Under the pieces are notes generated by a model, which worked only from the letters and a program-made list of their open reading frames with translations, did no database searches and was not told where the DNA came from. A stretch of DNA of 64,000 nt from Ignavibacteria bacterium (GTDB lineage: Bacteria > Bacteroidota > Ignavibacteria > Kapaibacteriales > UBA961), in the NCBI GenBank assembly GCA_016720145.1, contig JADJXV010000024.1, positions 130,726 to 194,725 on the forward strand. The letters run 5' to 3'. Below, piece by piece: positions 9,215 through 54,990 of this stretch (positions are counted from its first letter, which is position 1; every line of letters starts with the position of its first letter). The translations under genes were made by a program, and so were the position numbers.

Positions 9215-9396
9215 TACTATATGTGACATAAGTATTTCGTGTTGTAGAGGCGAATTGTATTCTCCCGGTCGAGCAAGGAATCGGGTGCATCCAATTCGCT
9301 TGACAGACATATCTCAATTCCTAATTGCAAGTTGTAACCTGTAATATTTCCAAAGTAATACACTATACTTTCATAATTTACTCGCGGAGAACCCCC

Positions 9397-13363: not shown

Positions 13364-13861
13364 TTATCCTGCTTTTGGCACTTCCATCGGTCGCTCGCGA
13401 TGAAGCATCACCCAATCTCCGTTTTCTATCAATGCCTCTTTGCCGAGCTCAAGCGTAAGTGATTGTGTAGCTTCCAAATCACCGCTTTTTAGTTTTTGTG
13501 CATAATATTTTTTAGCATTGGCGAATAATGTTCCCATGCGTGTGTATTGGCGAGATTGCTCACTAAAAAGACGTTTTTCTCCATAACCATGAAGTAGTGC
13601 TCCGAATACTTGAACTACACCAATCAACAAGGTCAAATGAGAGAGTGGATTATGGGCAAGTAAAAAATCAAACGATGTCTCAATAGTAGCTAAAGCAAGT
13701 CCGGCAAAAAAAGAAAAAATTACCCCACAGTTTAAGTATTTTGAGTTTGTTGCTATCACGATGTGCGGACTTAATAAAATATGTACATTGGTCATCAATC
13801 CAATGTTTACCAATGAGTTGCATGCGTGTTGCAAGGGAGTCCTTATTCTGAAAGTCTCCAT
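13364..13861 (-). CDS. 2-TM hairpin ORF, probably the out-of-frame continuation of the upstream gene
   Basis: Two hydrophobic helices: IFSFFAGLALATIETSFDFLL and LTLLIGVVQVFGALLHGY. It overlaps the end of the 491-aa ORF by ~180 nt in another frame. Confidence 0.4.
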   Translation of the reverse strand: METFRIRTPLQHACNSLVNIGLMTNVHILLSPHIVIATNSKYLNCGVIFSFFAGLALATIETSFDFLLAHNPLSHLTLLIGVVQVFGALLHGYGEKRLFSEQSRQYTRMGTLFANAKKYYAQKLKSGDLEATQSLTLELGKEALIENGDWVMLHRERPMEVPKAG

Positions 13862-15155
13862 GTGAATATTCTCCGAGCGGAATACTCCACGTTATAACTG
13901 CATCTCGTATCCAATCAAGATCACCCTTTTGCTTGCGCATGTAATGTTCGGCAATGTTGTGATTGATCCCCGCAATCTGCCAGAATAATTGTATCCTCAT
14001 ACCTTCAGCAAGAGCTCTGTAATCTAAATATTTTATTTCAAATTCACCACGATGTGCCCACAAATAACCTGTGTATGCGGCTGATAAACCAATGATATAG
14101 GTAAGAAGAATCCAAGGATTACCTGTAAGAATGTAGCTCCCCACCTGAGCCGAAACAACGATAAATACTAAGACAAACAGCCACATTTGGATAGTAAGTG
14201 TTCGCTTTTGATACAGACCTGCAAGCACATCAGCAGTGGCATATCGGTCGAGATTCATGGAAAGCGATTCGGGCATCGAATCCATGATTTCAGGAGGTAA
14301 TACATACGACTTACTTTTCGGTTTTTCAGCTGATAATGTCGTAGAATGGAGGGCGCAATCTGCGTTAAACCCATCAATTCTTCTAAAGATACGTTGAAAT
14401 TCAGCTTCATTTTGATTATCTGTCTCAGGATAAATCCACGTGGTCGTCAAGCTGTAAATGGGGATCGTCAATGTGCTATTTCGAGGAGTGAGAATGTGAT
14501 ACACCGGTCCGGACTCAACGATATCAAGTGGACTCTGATGCGCATACGCTGAGGGAATTCCATGAATCTTAAATTCCACCACTTGAGCTGTACTGCCAAC
14601 AAGCTTCGAAGGTACACCATCCCAAAGTGCTACTAAAATCTGACAATGCCGTGCGACATAAGCGCCGACAAGAGCATACTGCTCATCTCGGTGTGAACCG
14701 TACTGTTCGACATCACTTTCGAATGTTCCGGCCATAAGTGGCAATTCAAAAACATGCTTAGCTCGCTTAAGAAGAGCGCGAAATTCTCCCAAAGACTCCC
14801 AGCTTTCAAAATCACGTTCGTATAATCTGACCGGCATAGGCAGTGGAACAATAAGTTCAATCCCTGATTCTAACGCAACTTGCGCCGTAATGCGATCTGC
14901 ACCTTCAGCCAGTGGCGAAATAAGCATCAAAGGTGTATGCGAATATTCTTCCTGCATATCGGAAAAGAACTCATGAAGTAAGCGTCTGAGAACGCCTTCA
15001 TCCTCCGCACGCAAATTGCGATGTCCTGTAATACCAATCACTAACGGTAATTGTGTCGTATCTGATTTCATTGTTGCTTTCAATTGTTTTGGTTCACGTT
15101 CCGCAAATTCCAAGCCGTATTTTGCGGACACCCATTGCCGTCCAAACAGATACAA
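13680..15155 (-). CDS. Rossmann-like (SLOG/DprA-LOG-like) domain protein fused to a 2-TM (SLATT-like) module, possibly frameshifted
   Basis: N-terminus VIGITGHRNL...LISPLAEGADRITAQVALESGIELIVPLP. Central 2-TM segment LTIQMWLFVLVFIVVSAQVGSYILTGNPWILLTYIIGLSAAYTGYLWA. The ORF ends inside a tttttt c ttttttt run. Confidence 0.5.
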   Translation of the reverse strand: MYLFGRQWVSAKYGLEFAEREPKQLKATMKSDTTQLPLVIGITGHRNLRAEDEGVLRRLLHEFFSDMQEEYSHTPLMLISPLAEGADRITAQVALESGIELIVPLPMPVRLYERDFESWESLGEFRALLKRAKHVFELPLMAGTFESDVEQYGSHRDEQYALVGAYVARHCQILVALWDGVPSKLVGSTAQVVEFKIHGIPSAYAHQSPLDIVESGPVYHILTPRNSTLTIPIYSLTTTWIYPETDNQNEAEFQRIFRRIDGFNADCALHSTTLSAEKPKSKSYVLPPEIMDSMPESLSMNLDRYATADVLAGLYQKRTLTIQMWLFVLVFIVVSAQVGSYILTGNPWILLTYIIGLSAAYTGYLWAHRGEFEIKYLDYRALAEGMRIQLFWQIAGINHNIAEHYMRKQKGDLDWIRDAVITWSIPLGEYSHGDFQNKDSLATRMQLIGKHWIDDQCTYFIKSAHRDSNKLKILKLWGNFFFFCRTCFSYY

Positions 15156-17398: not shown

Positions 17399-17463
17399 GC
17401 GTAGGGGCGAATTGCATTCGCCCTTGGGTCTGCGTAGGGGCGAATTGCATTCGCCCTCTACGG
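17399..17463. repeat. Two tandem copies of a REP-like palindromic element (GTAGGGGCGAATTGCATTCGCCC)
   Basis: The hairpin GGGCGAAT-tgc-ATTCGCCC occurs twice. The same element appears at 21825, 29342 and 54932. Confidence 0.85.
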
Positions 17464-17525: not shown

Positions 17526-18518
17526 ATGTCCACACGTCGCACTTTTATTAAACAATCGGCTCTCGCGACAACGATTGCCGCCGCTGGAGGAATATCTATG
17601 TCAGAAAATCTTACTGCTATGCCTGAAAATATAATTGCAAAACCTACCAAACCGGTCGTTATTTCCACCTGGAATTTCGGCGTGCAGGCAAATAGTGCTG
17701 CGTGGGAAATTCTTTCGAAAAACGGTACTGCGCTCGATGCGGTGGAGGCAGGCGTGAAAGTGACCGAAGCCGACCCCGCGATTCAAAGCGTGGGATATGG
17801 CGGATTCCCCGATCGCGACGGCCGCGTAACGCTCGATGCCTGCGTGATGGACGAGAAGGGAAATTGCGGCGCGGTGGTGTTTTTGGAGCACATCATGCAC
17901 CCGGTATCGGTCGCGCGCGCGGTGATGGAAAAGACACCGCATGTGATACTCGCCGGCGAGGGAGCACTCCAATTTGCTCTCGCTAACGGGTTCCAAAAAG
18001 AGAACTTACTCACGGCCGAGTCGAAAGTTGCGTGGGAGAAGTGGTGCAAGGAACATCAGTATTCGCCCATGAAAATTGACCGGGACAATCATGATACGAT
18101 CGGTATGCTCGCTCTCGATGCGCATGGGAATGTATCGGGCGCGTGCACCACAAGCGGACTCGCGTGGAAGATGCATGGCCGTGTGGGCGACTCGCCGATA
18201 ATCGGCGCAGGACTCTATGTCGATAACGAAGTAGGCGCAGCCACAGCGACCGGCAAAGGCGAAGCAGTGATCAAAATGTGCGGGAGTTTTTTGATTGTAG
18301 AATTAATGCGGAATGGCAAAACGCCCGCCCAAGCATGTAAAATTGCCGTCGAACGCCTCGCCAAACAGCAGCCGGACCACAAAGATTTCCAGGTCGGTTT
18401 CCTCGCCATCAACAAGCGCGGCGAGACCGGCGGATATGCGATAGCGAAGGGTTTTCAGTATGCAGTGCACAATGGCGAAAACGTGCTGATAGATGCGGAG
18501 TATTTGGTGAAGGAGTGA
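17526..18518 (+). CDS. Periplasmic Ntn-hydrolase of the asparaginase-2 / glycosylasparaginase family (Tat-exported)
   Basis: Twin-arginine signal MSTRRTFIKQSALATTIAAAGG. HDTIGMLALD autoprocessing Thr. GAGLYVD. Confidence 0.85.
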   Translation: MSTRRTFIKQSALATTIAAAGGISMSENLTAMPENIIAKPTKPVVISTWNFGVQANSAAWEILSKNGTALDAVEAGVKVTEADPAIQSVGYGGFPDRDGRVTLDACVMDEKGNCGAVVFLEHIMHPVSVARAVMEKTPHVILAGEGALQFALANGFQKENLLTAESKVAWEKWCKEHQYSPMKIDRDNHDTIGMLALDAHGNVSGACTTSGLAWKMHGRVGDSPIIGAGLYVDNEVGAATATGKGEAVIKMCGSFLIVELMRNGKTPAQACKIAVERLAKQQPDHKDFQVGFLAINKRGETGGYAIAKGFQYAVHNGENVLIDAEYLVKE

Positions 18519-18524
18519 TGAGGG

Positions 18525-18574
18525 GAATCGTCGTTGACTAGACTCCAGCTTCAGCTGGAGGGAAAACGGTAAAT
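18525..18574. repeat. Left copy of a 50-bp direct repeat flanking the mrr cassette
   Basis: gaatcgtcgttgactagactccagcttcagctggagggaaaacggtaaat, with an internal hairpin ctccagc-ttca-gctggag. Confidence 0.85.
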
Positions 18575-18715
18575 CCATTACAATATGGCTTTAGCCAAAT
18601 TGCAGTTTGTAGGTATGGCTACATGCAGAAAAATTTATCTGAAGTCTTGTGCATTGTACTGCACGCAGTAATTTTGAAAAAATACCAATTCTCATTTTTT
18701 TAATACAGTATCTAT

Positions 18716-19615
18716 ATGGCAAAAGCAAAAGTAAGGCAAGCCGAATTTACCAAATGGATGGGACCTTTGCTCGATGCACTACGAGATTTGGGTGGCTCGG
18801 GCAAACCGAAAGAAGCAACTGAAAAAGTTGCTAAAAATCTTAATATACCCGATAATCTTTTAGAAGAAGTCATGAAATCGGGTACTCTTCGGTTTGCCAA
18901 TCAAGTAGCATGGGCACGGCAATATCTTATTTGGGAAGGTTATTTAGAAGATAATACGCGTGGAATATGGACATTGTCCGAAAAGGGTAGGACAACAACA
19001 CTTAACGATGAACAAGCAAGACAACTTTTTTTAAAATGGGTTGATATTCATCAAAAAGCCAGAAAAGACAAAACAAAAACAGAAATTATAGTCGATCAAG
19101 AAGAAGAAATTCCAGAAAATATCGAACATACATTTACACCGGGGCTTTTAGAAGTATTACAAAGCGTCACACCAAAAGGTTTTGAGAATATTTGTAAAAG
19201 ATTATTGAGAGAACATGGATTTGAAAATGTAGAAGTAACGGGTGGCTCACATGACGGAGGAATAGATGGCTATGGAACATTAGAACTAAACCCTTTTGTC
19301 ACCATAAAAGTACTTTTTCAATGCAAACGCTATAAAGGAACGGTTTCGAGAGCTCAGGTTGGCGACTTTCGGAATGCAATGTTAGGAAGAGCTGAAAAAG
19401 GTATCATTCTAACAACCGGAACTTTTTCAGAAGACGCAAAAAGGGAAGCGACAAGAGACGGAGCACCACCTATTGAACTTATTGACGGTCAAAAATTAGT
19501 ACACCTATTCGAAGAAAAGCAGTTAGGTGTTAAGCCCAAAATTATTTATGATGTCGACTTAAAATTCTTCGAGCCATATATGGAAACCAAAAATGGTAAG
19601 ACTGAAGAAATGTAG
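18716..19615 (+). CDS. mrr: Mrr-type restriction endonuclease (Mrr_N winged helix plus PD-(D/E)xK Mrr_cat)
   Basis: GGSHDGGIDGYG ... FQCKRYKG catalytic motifs. N-terminal winged-helix region. The gene is noticeably AT-richer than its flanks. Confidence 0.8.
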   Translation: MAKAKVRQAEFTKWMGPLLDALRDLGGSGKPKEATEKVAKNLNIPDNLLEEVMKSGTLRFANQVAWARQYLIWEGYLEDNTRGIWTLSEKGRTTTLNDEQARQLFLKWVDIHQKARKDKTKTEIIVDQEEEIPENIEHTFTPGLLEVLQSVTPKGFENICKRLLREHGFENVEVTGGSHDGGIDGYGTLELNPFVTIKVLFQCKRYKGTVSRAQVGDFRNAMLGRAEKGIILTTGTFSEDAKREATRDGAPPIELIDGQKLVHLFEEKQLGVKPKIIYDVDLKFFEPYMETKNGKTEEM

Positions 19616-19790
19616 TTAGTTAACTTAGATTATTCGTATATCTACTAATTCTATAACCAAGAATTCAAGTACTATCCGACAATATGCACGTTGAATATTT
19701 AGAGTTTTAGGTCTTAGAATGGAGTTTGGCTGATTGACCACGTATTGTCGATTTTTTGGAAGTATTGGATGTGGGAGAATATTAAGAACA

Positions 19791-19839
19791 GAATCCCCCC
19801 TGACTAGACTCCAGCTTCAGCTGGAGGAAAACGGTAAAT
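19791..19839. repeat. Right copy of the 50-bp direct repeat flanking the mrr cassette
   Basis: gaatcccccctgactagactccagcttcagctggagg-aaaacggtaaat. Confidence 0.85.
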
Positions 19840-19888
19840 ATATTAAAAACAAAGCATTGGATAAATTACAACAAACAAAATAACTCCC

Positions 19889-20662
19889 ATGCCTTCGATC
19901 CAATTTGTATCCGATCTTCACTTGGAATTTGCAGAGAACAGGGAGTTCTTACGGTATAATCCTTTGGTGCCGAGTGCTGACATATTGGTATTAGCCGGGG
20001 ATATAATTTCGGACAAGTACAAAAAGAAAGCAGAACCCTTCTATCAGGAGTGGCGAAAAAACTTCAAACATGTGATTGCAATTGCCGGAAATCACGAGTA
20101 CTATTATGGTGAAATACGCTATGCATATCCTTATTATTTCAAAAAGTTAGCAGAGAATCACTACAAGGTGAATAATCGCACTGTCATACTGGAAAATACT
20201 CGGTTTATTTGCTCGACCCTATGGACATTCATCCCGCCTGAGCATGCACGTGAGATTGAACACCGTATCAGCGATTACCGGCAGATTCTCTACAGTCAAA
20301 AAGAACAAGACCTTCGGACGATTTCAACGAGAGATGTTAATTTTTTCCATCAAATCTCACGCTCGTATCTTGAAACCGAACTCAAGCAACCCTTTGATGG
20401 GAAAACAGTTGTTGTAACGCATCATCTACCGAGCTTTGCGCTGCTTCCGGATGAAGACAAGAACACTGCCCTTCGTTATTATTGCGCCAGCGAACTTGAT
20501 GAGGTAATTATTAGCAGTCAGCCCAGGTATTGGATAGTTGGTCATTACCATAAATCAGTACATAAAACAATCGGGCAGACCGAGTGTATCTCCAATCCAC
20601 TCGGGTACATGGATGAAAATCAAAGGCATTCGTTTGCCTTTGCGAATTCTTTGGAAGTGTAG
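19889..20662 (+). CDS. Calcineurin-like metallophosphoesterase
   Basis: VSDLHLEF, LAGDI, AGNHEY, VTHH motifs. Confidence 0.75.
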   Translation: MPSIQFVSDLHLEFAENREFLRYNPLVPSADILVLAGDIISDKYKKKAEPFYQEWRKNFKHVIAIAGNHEYYYGEIRYAYPYYFKKLAENHYKVNNRTVILENTRFICSTLWTFIPPEHAREIEHRISDYRQILYSQKEQDLRTISTRDVNFFHQISRSYLETELKQPFDGKTVVVTHHLPSFALLPDEDKNTALRYYCASELDEVIISSQPRYWIVGHYHKSVHKTIGQTECISNPLGYMDENQRHSFAFANSLEV

Positions 20663-20728
20663 GGAAACTGATGGCGGCTATGTATAATTGAAAAATCAAT
20701 TAATTTATTACATTTAAACTGTCGAACA

Positions 20729-21148
20729 ATGAAAAACACAGCAACAGCAATAGCAATGATTATGACATTTATAACCATGCCTGTCTTATCACAGACGGCA
20801 GTCAAAGAACATAAAGTGGGACACATTTTTTATGTGAGTCTGCCGGAATATATGAGCAAAACCACAGGTCTAAATTCTTCAGCTGCAATACAGTTTAAGA
20901 GTACTGTCAAAGATGTTGCCGGTTTTGTAATTGAAGACAATAAAGAAGAATTACGATTAGCGGAAATGACTTATACTTCAACAAAAGAATTTTTTGATGA
21001 ATTTATGAAAGACTTCCTGAAAGATGAAGAAAACAAAACAAAACAGTGTCCCCATCAAAAAGTAAAAAAGTTGGTCAAACAAATTTCGTTGAATGTGATA
21101 TCACCTATACCGATAAAGAATCCAAACTTGAATTATACTATTTTATAG
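20729..21148 (+). CDS. Hypothetical secreted protein
   Basis: Signal peptide MKNTATAIAMIMTFITMPVLSQT. Lys-rich, 139 aa. Confidence 0.45.
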   Translation: MKNTATAIAMIMTFITMPVLSQTAVKEHKVGHIFYVSLPEYMSKTTGLNSSAAIQFKSTVKDVAGFVIEDNKEELRLAEMTYTSTKEFFDEFMKDFLKDEENKTKQCPHQKVKKLVKQISLNVISPIPIKNPNLNYTIL

Positions 21149-21338
21149 GCATTGCAGAAACATCATCCGCATATTATAAAATATTATGTTTGAGGTACAG
21201 CCGAAAGTAAAGACAAATTCAAAACCGATTTCCAAAAAATACTGTATAGTGTAAAAGATTAAATTTAGGTAATAAGTTCATAAATACATACTAATAAATA
21301 ACTTAATTGATAATATACAACAATTATTTTAAACTATT

Positions 21339-21824: not shown

Positions 21825-21885
21825 CTGTAGGGGCGGATTGCATCCGCCCTGGTCGTGCAGGTCTCGGGCGAATGCAATTATCGAA
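21825..21885. repeat. REP-like palindromic element, same family as 17399
   Basis: ctgtaggggcggattgcatccgccctggtcgtgcaggtctcgggcgaatgcaatt. Confidence 0.8.
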
Positions 21886-21947
21886 TCGAATTATAACATT
21901 CTGTAAATAATTATAATCAAAGTTGTTCAACTATCTTTAATAATCCT

Positions 21948-22319
21948 ATGCAATTAGGCGCATTCTCCATTAGTCTCAATGTCAAGGACATTACAGTTTC
22001 CAAGGAATTCTACGAAAACCTTGGTTTTACTCAGTTTGCCGGTGAAATAAAACATAATTATCTCATTATGAAAAATGGGAACACTCTCATCGGACTCTTT
22101 CATGGGATGTTCCCGAATAACATGCTCACGTTTAATCCCGGCTGGGATGAAAATGCAGCTTTGGTTGAGAATTTTGACGATGTTCGGGAGATTCAAAAGC
22201 ATCTCAAAAGCAAGAATATTACTCAACAAGCCGAAGCGGATGAGACGACGACAGGTCCTGCCTATATCATGCTCCAAGACCCTGACGGCAATCCGATATT
22301 AATTGACCAACATGTGTAG
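21948..22319 (+). CDS. Glyoxalase / VOC-family protein
   Basis: 123 aa. beta-alpha-beta-beta-beta VOC pattern: MQLGAFSISLNVKDI..SKEFYENLGF ... IMLQDPDGN. Confidence 0.65.
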   Translation: MQLGAFSISLNVKDITVSKEFYENLGFTQFAGEIKHNYLIMKNGNTLIGLFHGMFPNNMLTFNPGWDENAALVENFDDVREIQKHLKSKNITQQAEADETTTGPAYIMLQDPDGNPILIDQHV

Positions 22320-22463: not shown

Positions 22464-22471
22464 TTACATCT

Positions 22472-22879
22472 ATGACAACCGCACAAGGCACAAAACAAGA
22501 CCCGTGGAAACTCAAAACGCCACCCCAAACCTCCGAATATGAAATGTATAGGGATCAAAAAGACGGCATGGACGTAATAGTCTGCGTCGTTGGCAAGACG
22601 ACGCTTCTCTATGATTATCAATGCCTTGCTGACCTACACTCTATGCTTACAGCCCATGGTGACTGGATGGAACTCGGCAGCGCAGACGAACAAAAGCCCG
22701 CCAAAGACGGCACCGTGGAAGCATGGGGACGTTCGGAAAGTAATCCCCGTGGCGGCTGGTACGGACTCAAGAAAGGTCTCCGCGGACGCTTCGGCATGTA
22801 CGTGCCGCCACTGATGGAGGCATTGGGACTAGCGGAAGTGACACATGACCCTAAGGGAAATAAAATGCGGGCGATTTGA
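22472..22879 (+). CDS. Conserved hypothetical protein
   Basis: 135 aa. ...TVEAWGRSESNPRGGWYGLKKGLRGRFGMYVPPLMEALGLAE... Family not assigned. Confidence 0.5.
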   Translation: MTTAQGTKQDPWKLKTPPQTSEYEMYRDQKDGMDVIVCVVGKTTLLYDYQCLADLHSMLTAHGDWMELGSADEQKPAKDGTVEAWGRSESNPRGGWYGLKKGLRGRFGMYVPPLMEALGLAEVTHDPKGNKMRAI

Positions 22880-22992
22880 TGGGGAAATGGTGGGGTAATT
22901 CTGCACTATACAGCTACCTTTGCAAGAATTTTACCTGTCGTATCTGCTAACCGAAAAGTACAGAATAATACATTTGTTTCATGGAAATTTCA

Positions 22993-23529
22993 ATGCCAAA
23001 TAGAAAAGTAATTCTTTATATAGCAATGAGTTTGGACGGATTTATCGCCGCTCCGAATGATGACCTGAGTTTCCTGTCCGTCGTGCAGGAAGAGGGAGAG
23101 GACTATGGCTATAATAAATTTATCTGTTCTATTGACACGGTAATTATTGGCAGGAAAACATACGATTGGGTGATGACGCAAGTACCGGAATTCCCACATG
23201 CTGATAAAGTGACGTATGTTATCACTCGCTCGCCGCGTCCGAGTATTGAAACGACTCACTTTTATACCGGATCGCTTCCTTCACTCGTTGCCGAGCTCAA
23301 AGCCATGGACAGCGCGAAGCATATCTTCTGCGACGGCGGCGCCGAAGTGGTCAATGCGCTGCTCAAGGAAAATGTAATCGACGAATTCATCATCTCCATC
23401 ATTCCGACGCTGCTTGGTGACGGTACACAGCTTTTTCAGAATGGCGATAGGCTACAGCAGTCGCTGGAACTTGTTTCTATAAAACAATTTACATCCGGAC
23501 TGGTGCAGATTCACTACTGCCGCATCTGA
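22993..23529 (+). CDS. Dihydrofolate reductase family protein (RibD C-terminal-like)
   Basis: MPNRKVILYIAMSLDGFIA..., ...IGRKTYDW..., DEFIISIIPTLLGDG. Confidence 0.8.
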   Translation: MPNRKVILYIAMSLDGFIAAPNDDLSFLSVVQEEGEDYGYNKFICSIDTVIIGRKTYDWVMTQVPEFPHADKVTYVITRSPRPSIETTHFYTGSLPSLVAELKAMDSAKHIFCDGGAEVVNALLKENVIDEFIISIIPTLLGDGTQLFQNGDRLQQSLELVSIKQFTSGLVQIHYCRI

Positions 23530-23587
23530 AAATCATCTTCCATCATAAACAATCTGTGTTCATCAGCGTGCTATTCTTCGGTTTGTA

Positions 23588-29341: not shown

Positions 29342-29400
29342 ACTGTAGGGGCGAATTGCATTCGCCCGGCTCGTGCTAGGGTTTTGGGTGAATTCAATAC
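29342..29400. repeat. REP-like palindromic element, same family as 17399
   Basis: actgtaggggcgaattgcattcgcccggctcgtgctaggg... Confidence 0.8.
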
Positions 29401-54931: not shown

Positions 54932-54990
54932 TCGAGTTGTATTCGCCCTCTTCCTGCACGACGCCGGGCGGATGCAATCCGCCCCTACGT
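54932..54990. repeat. REP-like palindromic element, same family as 17399, in opposite orientation
   Basis: ...gggcgaatacaactc (partial), GGGCGGATGCAATCCGCCCCTACG. Confidence 0.8.

What the first reader, a model, noticed from the sequence alone, without database searches (positions are those of the whole stretch)
18525..19839. Low-GC Mrr restriction endonuclease cassette bounded by 50-bp direct repeats, inserted between an asparaginase and a phosphoesterase gene
The mrr-like gene (Mrr_N plus a PD-(D/E)xK domain with DGGIDG...QCKRY) is visibly AT-richer than the flanking housekeeping genes. It is bracketed by two nearly identical 50-bp direct repeats that each contain the hairpin CTCCAGC-ttca-GCTGGAG.

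This is the pattern expected for site-specific insertion of a small defence cassette into, or duplication of, an intergenic hairpin. Recombination between REP-like elements is the other possibility. No integrase or transposase accompanies it. This would be a minimal mobile defence islet.
Basis: seen in the sequence. Interest (0 to 1): 0.6.

Follow-up and report, generated by a model that had tools for sequence, protein, structure and literature searches.

The report
Mrr gene between dispersed hairpin repeats
A horizontally acquired Mrr-type restriction gene sits in a strain-variable gene array whose modules are separated by copies of a short, dispersed, REP/MITE-like hairpin repeat; the two repeats were there before mrr arrived and were not made by its insertion.

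Summary
An intact Mrr gene (18716-19615) lies between two direct repeats (18525-18604 and 19791-19870) that share a 27-nt exact core containing the hairpin CTCCAGC-TTCA-GCTGGAG.

The repeat, called E here, is not a target or att duplication. It is one arm of a ~165-170-nt palindromic REP/REPIN/MITE-like family. I found more than 40 distinct copies, all intergenic, in two other Kapaibacterium/Bacteroidota genomes and in metagenomes. Many are inverted doublets.

Contigs 88-95% identical to the window show a hypervariable array downstream of the asparaginase gene. E copies in direct orientation separate its modules: orf177-kptA, mrr, phosphoesterase, TMEM260-like and others. Six left-flank types and six right-flank types occur in 11 combinations, and they switch inside the 26-nt core.

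Relatives without mrr carry orf177-kptA between E copies. The window keeps a decayed 127-nt kptA 3' remnant (19664-19790) just upstream of E2, so the right end of the mrr segment lies inside kptA, not at E2. One relative has mrr with no right-hand E. Mrr homologues of 84% identity sit on a conjugative element elsewhere, without E. No recombinase was found.

Verdict: a minimal-mobile-element-like islet whose content changes by recombination at a new REP-like repeat family. Moderate interest.

The parts
17526..18518 (+). Asparaginase_2 / N4-(beta-N-acetylglucosaminyl)-L-asparaginase-like gene; the conserved left anchor of the variable array
   Evidence: Pfam 5e-69. It is 92-93% nt identical in L010/L011 and 90% in L033. 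Homology with L010/L011 stops at 18558, inside the E1 hairpin.
18525..18604 (+). E1, the long-form copy of the dispersed repeat. Left extension GAATCGTCGT; core TGACTAGA plus hairpin (18535-18560); GAAAACGGTAAAT; outer module GGCTTTAGCCAAA (18587-18599)
   Evidence: (58.9 bits, E 1e-13). The same long form occurs in L031 1-64 (97%), L010 (92.5%) and L035 (100% in the right module).
18605..18715 (+). mrr leader (untranslated), poorly conserved between lineages
   Evidence: 90% identical in L035 but only 54% in L033, although mrr itself is 93-94% identical in both.
18716..19615 (+). mrr, a solitary Type IV (modification-dependent) restriction endonuclease gene with Mrr_N plus a PD-(D/E)xK Mrr_cat domain
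   Evidence: A 100% identical protein (P0001) is named as from a 'MAG Ignavibacteria bacterium'. Homologues of 83-85% identity occur in Spirosoma, Saprospiraceae and Bacteroidia. In distant hosts, nucleotide similarity is confined to the ORF (18716-19590).
19616..19663 (+). Short spacer after mrr that travels with mrr in the window, L033 and L035
   Evidence: 87-90% identical in L033 and L035. Absent in L044/L045, where homology ends at the mrr stop codon.
19664..19790 (+). Decayed 3' remnant of a kptA/Tpt1 (RNA 2'-phosphotransferase) gene, corresponding to about residues 148-187 of 187, with stops and a frameshift
   Evidence: tblastn of the L010 KptA protein. blastn: 79% to L010 and 89% to L031 across 19664-20698. 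Alignment. The intact gene matches PTS_2-RNA at 2.4e-49.
19791..19870 (+). E2, the second copy of the repeat (core 19801-19826), with a degenerate outer module AGCATTGGATAAATT (19853-19867)
   Evidence: 67.4 bits, E 7e-16. It is orthologous to the E between kptA and the phosphoesterase gene in L031.
19889..20662 (+). Metallophosphoesterase gene, itself an accessory module. It is present in L031 and absent in L038 and L033
   Evidence: Pfam 6.9e-14. Homologues: 94%, then 58%. PADLOC PDC-S10 9e-15. Module maps.

Best explanation
mrr is a solitary, horizontally acquired Type IV (modification-dependent) restriction endonuclease gene. It occupies one slot of a strain-variable array of small accessory and defence-type genes downstream of the asparaginase gene, in an Ignavibacteria/Kapabacteria-type genome.

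The two 50-80-bp direct repeats are single arms of a ~165-170-bp palindromic REP/REPIN/MITE-like element family, called E here, that is dispersed in this clade. In the array, E copies in direct orientation sit at most module junctions and serve as recombination joints. Left and right modules reassort, with the switch inside the 26-nt core (TGACTAGA plus hairpin).

Shown:
- E is older than mrr at this locus.
- E2 belongs with the kptA tail.
- The right junction of the mrr-specific segment lies inside kptA.
- Modules are gained or lost cleanly at E.

Inferred: mrr entered either by replacing orf177 and most of kptA, or into its own slot after a duplication of the kptA tail plus E. Later E x E recombination between direct repeats, together with homologous exchange of whole array variants between strains, produced the present configurations. 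E acts as passive portable homology rather than as the substrate of a dedicated cassette recombinase.
For: (1) E is a dispersed family.
- There are 8 exact-core copies in two other genomes and 23 matches in 22 metagenome contigs.
- These give 47 distinct sequence contexts, all intergenic.
- Many copies lie at contig ends.
- Many are head-to-head doublets with the variant CTACAGC-TTTA-GCTGTAG.
- A full doublet folds as a long palindrome (-89.7 kcal/mol, z -11).
- The stem is 98% paired, with a C-G to A-U compensatory change in 6 distinct copies.

(2) The locus varies between relatives.
- L010/L011: Asn|E|orf177-kptA|E.
- L038: Asn.orf180|E|orf177-kptA|E|TMEM260.
- L031: E|83-210|E|orf177-kptA|E|PE|E|TMEM260.
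- L033: Asn|E|mrr-dkptA|E|TMEM260.
- L035: Asn.orfX|E|mrr...TPR.
- L044: E|mrr|no E.
- In all, 11 left x right flank combinations occur across E.

(3) A kptA remnant lies at 19664-19790, and the window is collinear with L031 kptA-E-PE at 89%.

(4) Module order is the same in every variant, so differential deletion between direct repeats is sufficient (derived).

(5) mrr is mobile by other routes. A homologue of 84% identity sits in an ICE with TraG, a TrwC relaxase, ArdC and an integrase. DNA similarity there is limited to the ORF and no E is present.

(6) No recombinase or transposase lies within about 15 kb or next to the doublets examined.
Against: - The shared core is only 26-30 nt for some junction pairs (for example Asn|rA against kptA|r1). 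That is near the lower limit for RecA-dependent recombination.
- E is locally enriched. There are two copies within 1.3 kb and none in the other 62.7 kb, and four copies within 3.4 kb in L031. All are in the same orientation, which hints at a more specific link between E and the modules.
- No single contig shows Asn|E|orf177-kptA|E|PE, so the ancestral state is a composite of L010 and L031.
- What follows the second E in L010 is unknown because the contig ends there.
- Whole genomes could not be scanned for a RAYT/HUH enzyme or a parent IS.
Confidence: 0.7

Rival explanations
1. E is the attachment site of a dedicated, integron-like cassette system. Circular modules carrying one E would integrate at, and excise from, chromosomal E sites by hairpin-specific recombination. 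The enzyme would be encoded elsewhere in the genome. The result would be arrays of co-oriented cassettes, each bounded by E.
For: - E lies at nearly every module junction, always in the same orientation.
- Flank switches are confined to the 26-nt core.
- The PE-less site carries a single E (L038 against L031).
- E is locally enriched.
- Array E copies share extended flanks with each other (AGAATCCyCCTT...AAAAACGr), consistent with local propagation.
- Hairpin sequence and loop are strictly conserved across genomes.
Against: - The right junction of mrr lies inside kptA, not at E.
- L044/L045 and L035 lack the right-hand E after mrr, and L035 and L038 lack an E between Asn and the first module.
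- Module order never varies, so deletion alone is enough.
- No integrase or HUH gene occurs in the window or the fetched loci.
- E also occurs as inverted doublets and between large T9SS-type cargo genes, away from any cassette array.
- E does not fit the attC consensus on direct reading of the sequence.
Confidence: 0.12
2. E is primarily an expression element carried by each gene. It could be a 3' mRNA-stabilising or terminator hairpin, or an outward promoter or 5'-leader as in Correia elements. On this view the two copies around mrr reflect operon punctuation, and recombination at them is incidental.
For: - Singlet copies are almost always co-oriented with the downstream gene: about 20 of 21 copies, roughly 12 independent sites.
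- Several copies start 8-17 nt after the upstream stop codon (Asn, kptA, L006, L008).
- The loop TTCA is not self-complementary, yet it is conserved.
Against: - No U-tract follows the hairpin, and the terminator scan does not call it.
- No conserved -35/-10 or Bacteroidota -33/-7 motif is visible in the aligned copies.
- No Rfam family matches.
- Distance to the downstream start codon varies from 52 to about 450 nt.
- Inverted doublets and contig-end positions are typical of a mobile repeat.
- The orientation bias could come from strand-biased single-strand transposition combined with gene-strand bias.
Confidence: 0.1
3. The two repeats are a chance similarity or an assembly artefact.
For: None beyond the fact that the sequence comes from a metagenome-assembled genome.
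Against: - Shuffles expect 0 copies.
- The same two-repeat arrangement is independently assembled in L033, L034 and L032 from other samples.
- The core is identical in more than 40 other copies.
Confidence: 0.01

Closest known systems
REP / BIME / REPIN elements (Bertels & Rainey 2011, PMC3116915; PMC3337134)
   Same: E has a short palindromic core with conserved 5' and 3' flanks and is strictly extragenic. It is dispersed, and it occurs as inverted doublets with a spacer that fold into a long hairpin. Singlets look like remnants. Two stem variants (E and E') alternate in orientation, as the Y and Z REPs do in BIMEs. REP-mediated recombination is a known source of rearrangement (my own knowledge).
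   Different: - Copy number appears low: a few to a few tens per genome, and only 2 in 64 kb.
- The conserved tetranucleotide next to the hairpin is CTAG, not GTAG.
- No RAYT was found in the sequence available.
- Singlets are strongly co-oriented with genes.
- The same window holds a second, more classical family, GTAG-GGGCGAATTGCATTCGCCC, with 6 copies.
Minimal mobile elements of Neisseria (Saunders & Snyder 2002; used in PMC1797815)
   Same: Alternative small gene sets, often restriction systems, sit at one syntenic site between conserved genes in different strains. They carry no mobility genes. Exchange is presumed to occur by homologous recombination.
   Different: Here the islet is subdivided by a repeated hairpin element at which modules reassort. 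Natural transformation is not known for this clade.
Integron cassette arrays / CALINs (attC sites)
   Same: Co-oriented, promoter-poor small genes are separated by an imperfect-palindrome site. Cassette content varies between relatives. A site without a given cassette carries one copy of the site.
   Different: There is no IntI, and E does not match the attC R''/R' consensus. Junctions are not always at E, cassette order is fixed, and E also occurs outside arrays and as inverted doublets.
Correia / ERIC-type MITEs
   Same: The full element is a ~100-170-bp imperfect palindrome in intergenic regions, with possible effects on expression and with half-copies present.
   Different: No target-site duplication or parent IS was identified. 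The inverted arms each contain their own perfect hairpin.
E. coli Mrr (Type IV restriction)
   Same: Mrr_N plus Mrr_cat architecture, a D...QxK motif, and a solitary gene without a methyltransferase.
   Different: Activity and modification specificity are untested. No solved structure is detectable by sequence search.

Membership tests
Mrr / Type IV modification-dependent restriction endonuclease | N-terminal Mrr_N winged-helix domain plus C-terminal Mrr_cat PD-(D/E)xK nuclease domain | tested here: met
   Pfam Mrr_N 1.9e-21 (residues 11-94) and Mrr_cat 2.1e-31 (148-264). PADLOC mREase_IV 3e-26 over residues 11-287.
Mrr / Type IV modification-dependent restriction endonuclease | Catalytic D ... 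(E/Q)xK motif intact | tested here: met
   HDGGIDG and FQCKRY are present in the translation. This rests on reading the motif, with no structural check.
Mrr / Type IV modification-dependent restriction endonuclease | Cleaves only modified DNA; no cognate methyltransferase | not testable with these tools
   No methyltransferase ORF is adjacent. Enzymatic activity cannot be tested here.
REP / REPIN | Short palindromic core, extragenic, in multiple dispersed copies | tested here: met
   All copies are intergenic. At least 4 exact-core copies occur per genome in two genomes, plus variant copies. Only 2 copies occur in this 64-kb window.
REP / REPIN | Two REPs in inverted orientation with a spacer, able to form a long hairpin | tested here: met
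   Head-to-head E/E' doublets with 47-95-nt spacers occur in L002, L009, L013, L017, L025, L026, L028 and L030. The L017 doublet region folds at -89.7 kcal/mol, z -11. The two window copies are singlets.
REP / REPIN | A cognate single-copy RAYT (HUH/Y1 transposase), typically flanked by the repeats | tested here: inconclusive
   ORFs next to the doublets in L026, L009 and L017 were read from their translations and did not look like transposases; Pfam was not run on them. No RAYT appeared among the Pfam-scanned ORFs within about 15 kb of mrr. Whole genomes could not be scanned.
REP / REPIN | Conserved GTAG tetranucleotide beside the palindrome | tested here: not met
   E has CTAG (TGACTAGA) 5' of the stem. 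Only the E' variant ends in GTAG. The other repeat family in the window does carry GTAG.
Target-site or att duplication created by insertion of the mrr cassette | Insert boundaries coincide with the repeats, and genomes without the insert have one copy | tested here: not met
   The right boundary is at about 19664, inside a kptA remnant. Contigs without mrr have E on both sides of orf177-kptA. L044/L045 have mrr without the right-hand E.
Integron / CALIN cassette array | Tyrosine recombinase IntI nearby, or attC sites with R''(RYYYAAC)...R'(GTTRRRY) | tested here: not met
   No integrase lies within about 15 kb. The sequence around E (…CGTTGACTAGA…GGAAAACGG…) does not fit either box on direct reading.
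Integron / CALIN cassette array | Co-oriented cassettes separated by the site, with content varying between relatives | tested here: met
Minimal mobile element (MME) | Alternative gene sets at one syntenic site between conserved genes, with no mobility genes | tested here: met
   At least six configurations occur between the asparaginase gene and the glyoxalase/DUF6855/RibD_C/YfhO block. No mobility genes were found.
Minimal mobile element (MME) | Exchange by transformation and homologous recombination in the flanking genes | not testable with these tools
   The only hint is mosaic identity. DUF6855 is 91-92% identical to L031/L032, against 78-81% for its neighbours.
MITE | Terminal inverted repeats, a target-site duplication and a related autonomous IS | tested here: inconclusive
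   Doublets have inverted arms of about 70 nt, ending in ...GGCTTTAGCCAAA. No target-site duplication or parent IS was identified.

The most novel reading that the evidence does not exclude
E is the recombination site of an integrase-independent, hairpin-based cassette system in Kapabacteria. Small defence and accessory modules, each carrying one E, would be excised and integrated at E by an unlinked enzyme, such as a domesticated HUH/RAYT-type or other single-strand-specific recombinase. This would build integron-like arrays without an integron.
Probability: 0.1. Interest if true: 0.75.

Novelty: new member of a known kind. Interest (0 to 1): 0.38.

Why it matters
The finding shows how a defence gene can turn over without any mobility gene. 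A short dispersed hairpin repeat subdivides an accessory-gene hotspot into modules that are lost, kept or replaced at the repeat.

It also documents a previously undescribed REP/MITE-like family. There is no Rfam match and no literature hit for its sequence. The family occurs in a poorly studied clade (Kapabacteria/Ignavibacteria) and has an unusual co-orientation with genes.

If the repeat proved to be a true site-specific substrate, it would be an integron analogue. On present evidence it is an instance of known processes: minimal mobile elements and recombination at REP-type repeats.

Tried and rejected
- Intrinsic terminator: the scan does not call E, and no U-tract follows it on either strand.
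- Known RNA family: there are no Rfam hits at gathering threshold on the window, and only noise at E<=10 on the region and on E-rich loci.
- attC site: the consensus boxes are not present.
- tRNA or att-type integration target: no tRNA-like sequence is evident at E in the sequence read, and no integrase is nearby. find_trnas was not run.
- Further or degenerate E copies in the window: the covariance model with filters off finds none, and GGCTTTAGCCAAA occurs once.
- RAYT or transposase next to the doublets: the flanking ORFs look like small lipoprotein or immunity-like proteins, judged from their translations only.
- Phage or plasmid vehicle: no E occurs in IMG/VR contigs. The only plasmid hit is a 69% match to part of mrr.
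- Exact look-up of the window's own Mrr and asparaginase proteins: not on record.
- Literature search for the hairpin sequence: 0 papers. 'Kapabacteria' plus 'repeat' gave nothing relevant.
- Solved structures: no sequence-level match for the Mrr protein.
- GC content as evidence of foreign origin: rejected as weak, because mrr lies within the window's gene-GC range.
Full report
**1. The observation**

ORF 18716-19615 (+) encodes a 299-aa protein with Pfam Mrr_N (1.9e-21) and Mrr_cat (2.1e-31) and the motifs HDGGIDG...FQCKRYKG. It matches the PADLOC model for Type IV methyl-directed restriction enzymes over almost its whole length (3e-26).

The gene lies between an Asparaginase_2 gene (17526-18518) and a metallophosphoesterase gene (19889-20662). 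Two direct repeats flank it. They share a 27-nt exact core, TGACTAGACTCCAGCTTCAGCTGGAGG, at 18535-18561 and 19801-19827. They are about 90% identical over 50 nt and 70% over 80 nt (18525-18604 vs 19791-19870). Each holds the 7-bp hairpin CTCCAGC-TTCA-GCTGGAG (-12.4 kcal/mol as RNA). Shuffled sequence gives no such match.

Two details of the description are weaker.
- mrr (GC 0.379) is not an outlier among the window's genes (range 0.33-0.54, overall 0.43). The asparaginase gene is the most GC-rich gene of the window (0.538). Low GC continues to about 22400, well past the second repeat.
- The phosphoesterase is not housekeeping. It has one 94% homologue, and the next best is 58%, in Leptospira. 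It also matches a PADLOC candidate-defence model.

**2. What the repeat is**

A scan of one genome per species found eight more exact cores in two other genomes: Candidatus Kapaibacterium sp. STL-BAC57 and Bacteroidota MAG_525. The pattern left the loop free (GACTAGACTCCAGCNNNNGCTGGAGG), yet the loop was TTCA in every copy. Nothing else in those loci resembled the window.

A metagenome scan that left two stem pairs free found 22 more contigs. Allowing up to 4 mismatches in all fetched DNA gives 47 distinct contexts, and every one is intergenic. Many copies lie at contig ends, as expected for a multicopy repeat that breaks assemblies.

The conserved unit is longer than the core. It reads about gAATCyyCCT-TGACTAGA-hairpin-rAAAAyGGTwa, often followed 17-26 nt later by GGCTTTAGCCAAA. 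The window's E1 has this long form (18587-18599). E2 has a degenerate version of the outer module (19853-19867).

Many copies are paired head-to-head, 47-95 nt apart, with a variant TGACTAGACTACAGCTTTAGCTGTAG. That variant's stem carries a compensatory C-G to A-T change. Stem pairing over 39 distinct copies is 98%, with the compensatory pair in six of them. A full doublet is a ~165-170-nt imperfect palindrome running from AATTTGGCAAAGCC to GGCTTTAGCCAAA. The L017 region containing it folds at -89.7 kcal/mol, z -11.

This is the anatomy of REP/BIME/REPIN or MITE-type elements: two inverted REPs with a spacer, and singlets as remnants (PMC3337134).

No Rfam family matches. No paper in the searched library prints the hairpin sequence. 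No copy occurs in IMG/VR viral contigs. A covariance model of the 50-nt unit finds only the two known copies in the 64-kb window. The window also holds a second, more classical REP family, GTAG-GGGCGAATTGCATTCGCCC, with six copies including a tandem pair just upstream of the asparaginase gene.

**3. The locus in relatives**

Protein searches and contig look-ups recovered several versions of the same neighbourhood at 88-95% nucleotide identity. In the maps below, | marks an E copy and. marks a junction without one.
- L010/L011: Asn|orf177-kptA|(contig end).
- L038: SerRS-GNAT-Asn.orf180|orf177-kptA|TMEM260-like...
- L031: |83aa-210aa|orf177-kptA|PE|TMEM260-like...
- L033/L032/L034: SerRS-GNAT-Asn|mrr-dkptA|TMEM260-like...
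- L035: Asn.orfX|mrr-dkptA(partial).TPR...
- L044/L045: |mrr.(partial TMEM260 leader).
- Window: SerRS-GNAT-Asn|mrr-dkptA|PE.139aa...

All E copies are in the same orientation as the genes.

Listing the flanks of every array E shows six left-flank types: the tails of Asn, kptA, orf180, the 210-aa gene, PE and orfX. There are six right-flank types: the leaders of orf177, mrr (two forms), PE, TMEM260 and a 174-aa gene. These occur in 11 combinations, and the switch always falls within the 26-nt core. E is therefore the recombination joint of a modular array.

L031 has kptA|PE|TMEM260, and L038 has kptA|TMEM260 with a single E.

More distant relatives have other genes after the asparaginase gene and no E. 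At 83-84% asparaginase identity, L040 has TfoX_N, DUF4287 and a Cap15-like protein, and L039 has SprA.

**4. How mrr relates to the repeats**

The mrr-specific segment is not bounded by E2. Homology with L010/L011 on the asparaginase side stops at 18558, inside the E1 hairpin. Homology with L031 and L010 resumes at about 19664. From there to E2, the window carries a decayed 3' remnant of kptA, covering about residues 148-187 with stops and a frameshift. The remnant is followed by E2 and PE, collinear with L031's kptA-E-PE at 89%.

So E2 belongs with the kptA tail, and contigs that lack mrr already have E on both sides of orf177-kptA. L044/L045 carry a Mrr 96% identical in protein (92% nt over the gene), with homology ending exactly at its stop codon. 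They have neither a kptA remnant nor a right-hand E. L035 also lacks E after mrr. The mrr leader is only about 54% identical between the window and L033, although the gene is 93% identical.

Outside this clade, Mrr proteins of 83-88% identity occur in other Bacteroidota, among them Spirosoma and Saprospiraceae. One of them, at 84% identity, lies in an integrative conjugative element with TraG, a TrwC relaxase, ArdC and an integrase. Nucleotide similarity to the window covers only the ORF, and no E is present. mrr is thus a frequently transferred gene that reached this array independently of E.

**5. Mechanism**

Shown:
- E is a dispersed repeat that pre-dates mrr here.
- Modules reassort at E.
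- The right junction of mrr is inside kptA.
- No integrase or transposase lies within about 15 kb.

Inferred: module order is identical in all variants (83-210 < orf177-kptA < mrr-dkptA < PE < TMEM260). Every configuration can therefore be derived from one long array by deletions between direct E copies, with whole variants spreading by homologous recombination in the conserved flanks. The mosaic identity supports such exchange: DUF6855 is 91-92% identical to L031/L032, against 78-81% for neighbouring genes.

Two routes for mrr remain open.
- (a) mrr replaced orf177 and most of kptA, with the left join at or near E1 and an illegitimate right join inside kptA.
- (b) mrr-dkptA is a separate slot downstream of kptA|E-long, and the window later lost orf177-kptA by E x E deletion. 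This slot could have arisen by single-crossover integration of a circle carrying a kptA-tail-plus-E homology.

The second E in L010 has the same long-form right flank as the window's E1 (92.5%). The contig ends a few bases later, and L031 shows the same long form in front of different genes. I cannot decide between (a) and (b).

**6. Rivals**

A dedicated hairpin-specific cassette system is not excluded.
- In its favour: E is locally enriched, always co-oriented, strictly conserved in stem and loop, and the switch point is confined to the core.
- Against it: several junctions lack E, the order is fixed, no enzyme was found, and E occurs abundantly outside arrays.

An expression role, as an mRNA 3' stabiliser or leader, is suggested by the co-orientation of singlets with the downstream gene. 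This holds for about 20 of 21 copies, or roughly 12 independent sites. However, there is no U-tract and no conserved promoter motif. Strand-biased transposition combined with gene-strand bias could give the same pattern. These roles are not mutually exclusive with recombination at E.

**7. Comparison and verdict**

The gene is an ordinary member of the Mrr/Type IV family. The islet works like the minimal mobile elements of Neisseria: alternative small gene sets, often restriction systems, at one syntenic site without mobility genes (PMC1797815). The repeat is a new member of the REP/REPIN/MITE kind. It meets the structural criteria, but no RAYT was found and it lacks the GTAG signature, so I do not file it as a REPIN proper. 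It fails the integron criteria.

Its main interpretation, insertion that duplicated an intergenic hairpin, is not supported for mrr. Its fallback, recombination between REP-like elements, is supported.

Interest is moderate. The modular reassortment at a 26-nt hairpin core, in a defence and accessory hotspot of an understudied clade, is worth a note. It would become important only if a dedicated enzyme or circular intermediates were found.

Noticed in passing
window 17401-17423, 17434-17456 (tandem pair), 9244-9266, 21827-21849, 29345-29367, 54966-54988(-): A second, classical REP family, GTAG-GGGCGAATTGCATTCGCCC, has 6 copies in 64 kb. Two copies carry a compensatory stem change (GGGCGGATTGCATCCGCCC). 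One copy lies inside the variable array, between the UPF0158 and glyoxalase genes.
   Followed up: partly
window 20729-21210: The gene after the phosphoesterase gene appears frameshifted (139-aa plus 54-aa ORFs). It is 73% identical at nucleotide level to an intact 174-aa gene in L021, where an E copy precedes it. No E is present at this junction in the window.
   Followed up: partly
window 22471-22879 (DUF6855) compared with 21923-22318 and 22943-23582: Identity to relatives is mosaic. DUF6855 is 91-92% identical to L031/L032, while the flanking glyoxalase and RibD_C genes are 78-80% identical. This suggests recent recombination of single genes between lineages.
   Followed up: no
window 13680-15155 (-): A 491-aa ORF has no Pfam or PADLOC match. 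Its N-terminal region (GITGHRNL...AEGADR) followed by hydrophobic segments resembles SLOG/2TM conflict-system proteins. That resemblance is from memory and was not tested.
   Followed up: no
L003 2837-2914: One E copy in Bacteroidota MAG_525 is followed directly by a tandem array (GGAAACGG) x 9.8 that runs to the contig end.
   Followed up: no
L001 5901-6776 and L019: A reverse-transcriptase-like ORF (ending ...YADDFII) lies about 550-680 nt from an E/E' doublet and reads away from the exact-core copy. The type (group II intron or retron) was not determined.
   Followed up: no
L031 1261-2350, L038 5851-6940, L010 (- strand): orf177 has no Pfam or PADLOC match. Its stop codon overlaps the start codon of a KptA/Tpt1 RNA 2'-phosphotransferase gene, and the pair behaves as one module of the array. 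It may be a two-gene conflict system.
   Followed up: partly
L040 6842-7474: In a more distant relative (asparaginase 83% identical), the genes after the asparaginase gene include a Cap15_CD_rec (CBASS effector-like) protein. The site downstream of this gene therefore seems to be an accessory or defence hotspot across lineages, even without E.
   Followed up: no
L004, L005, L008, L001, L016, L018: Several E copies lie upstream of large paralogous secreted proteins whose C-termini look like T9SS sorting domains. Extended flanks are shared between copies, so E is sometimes duplicated together with gene paralogues.
   Followed up: no
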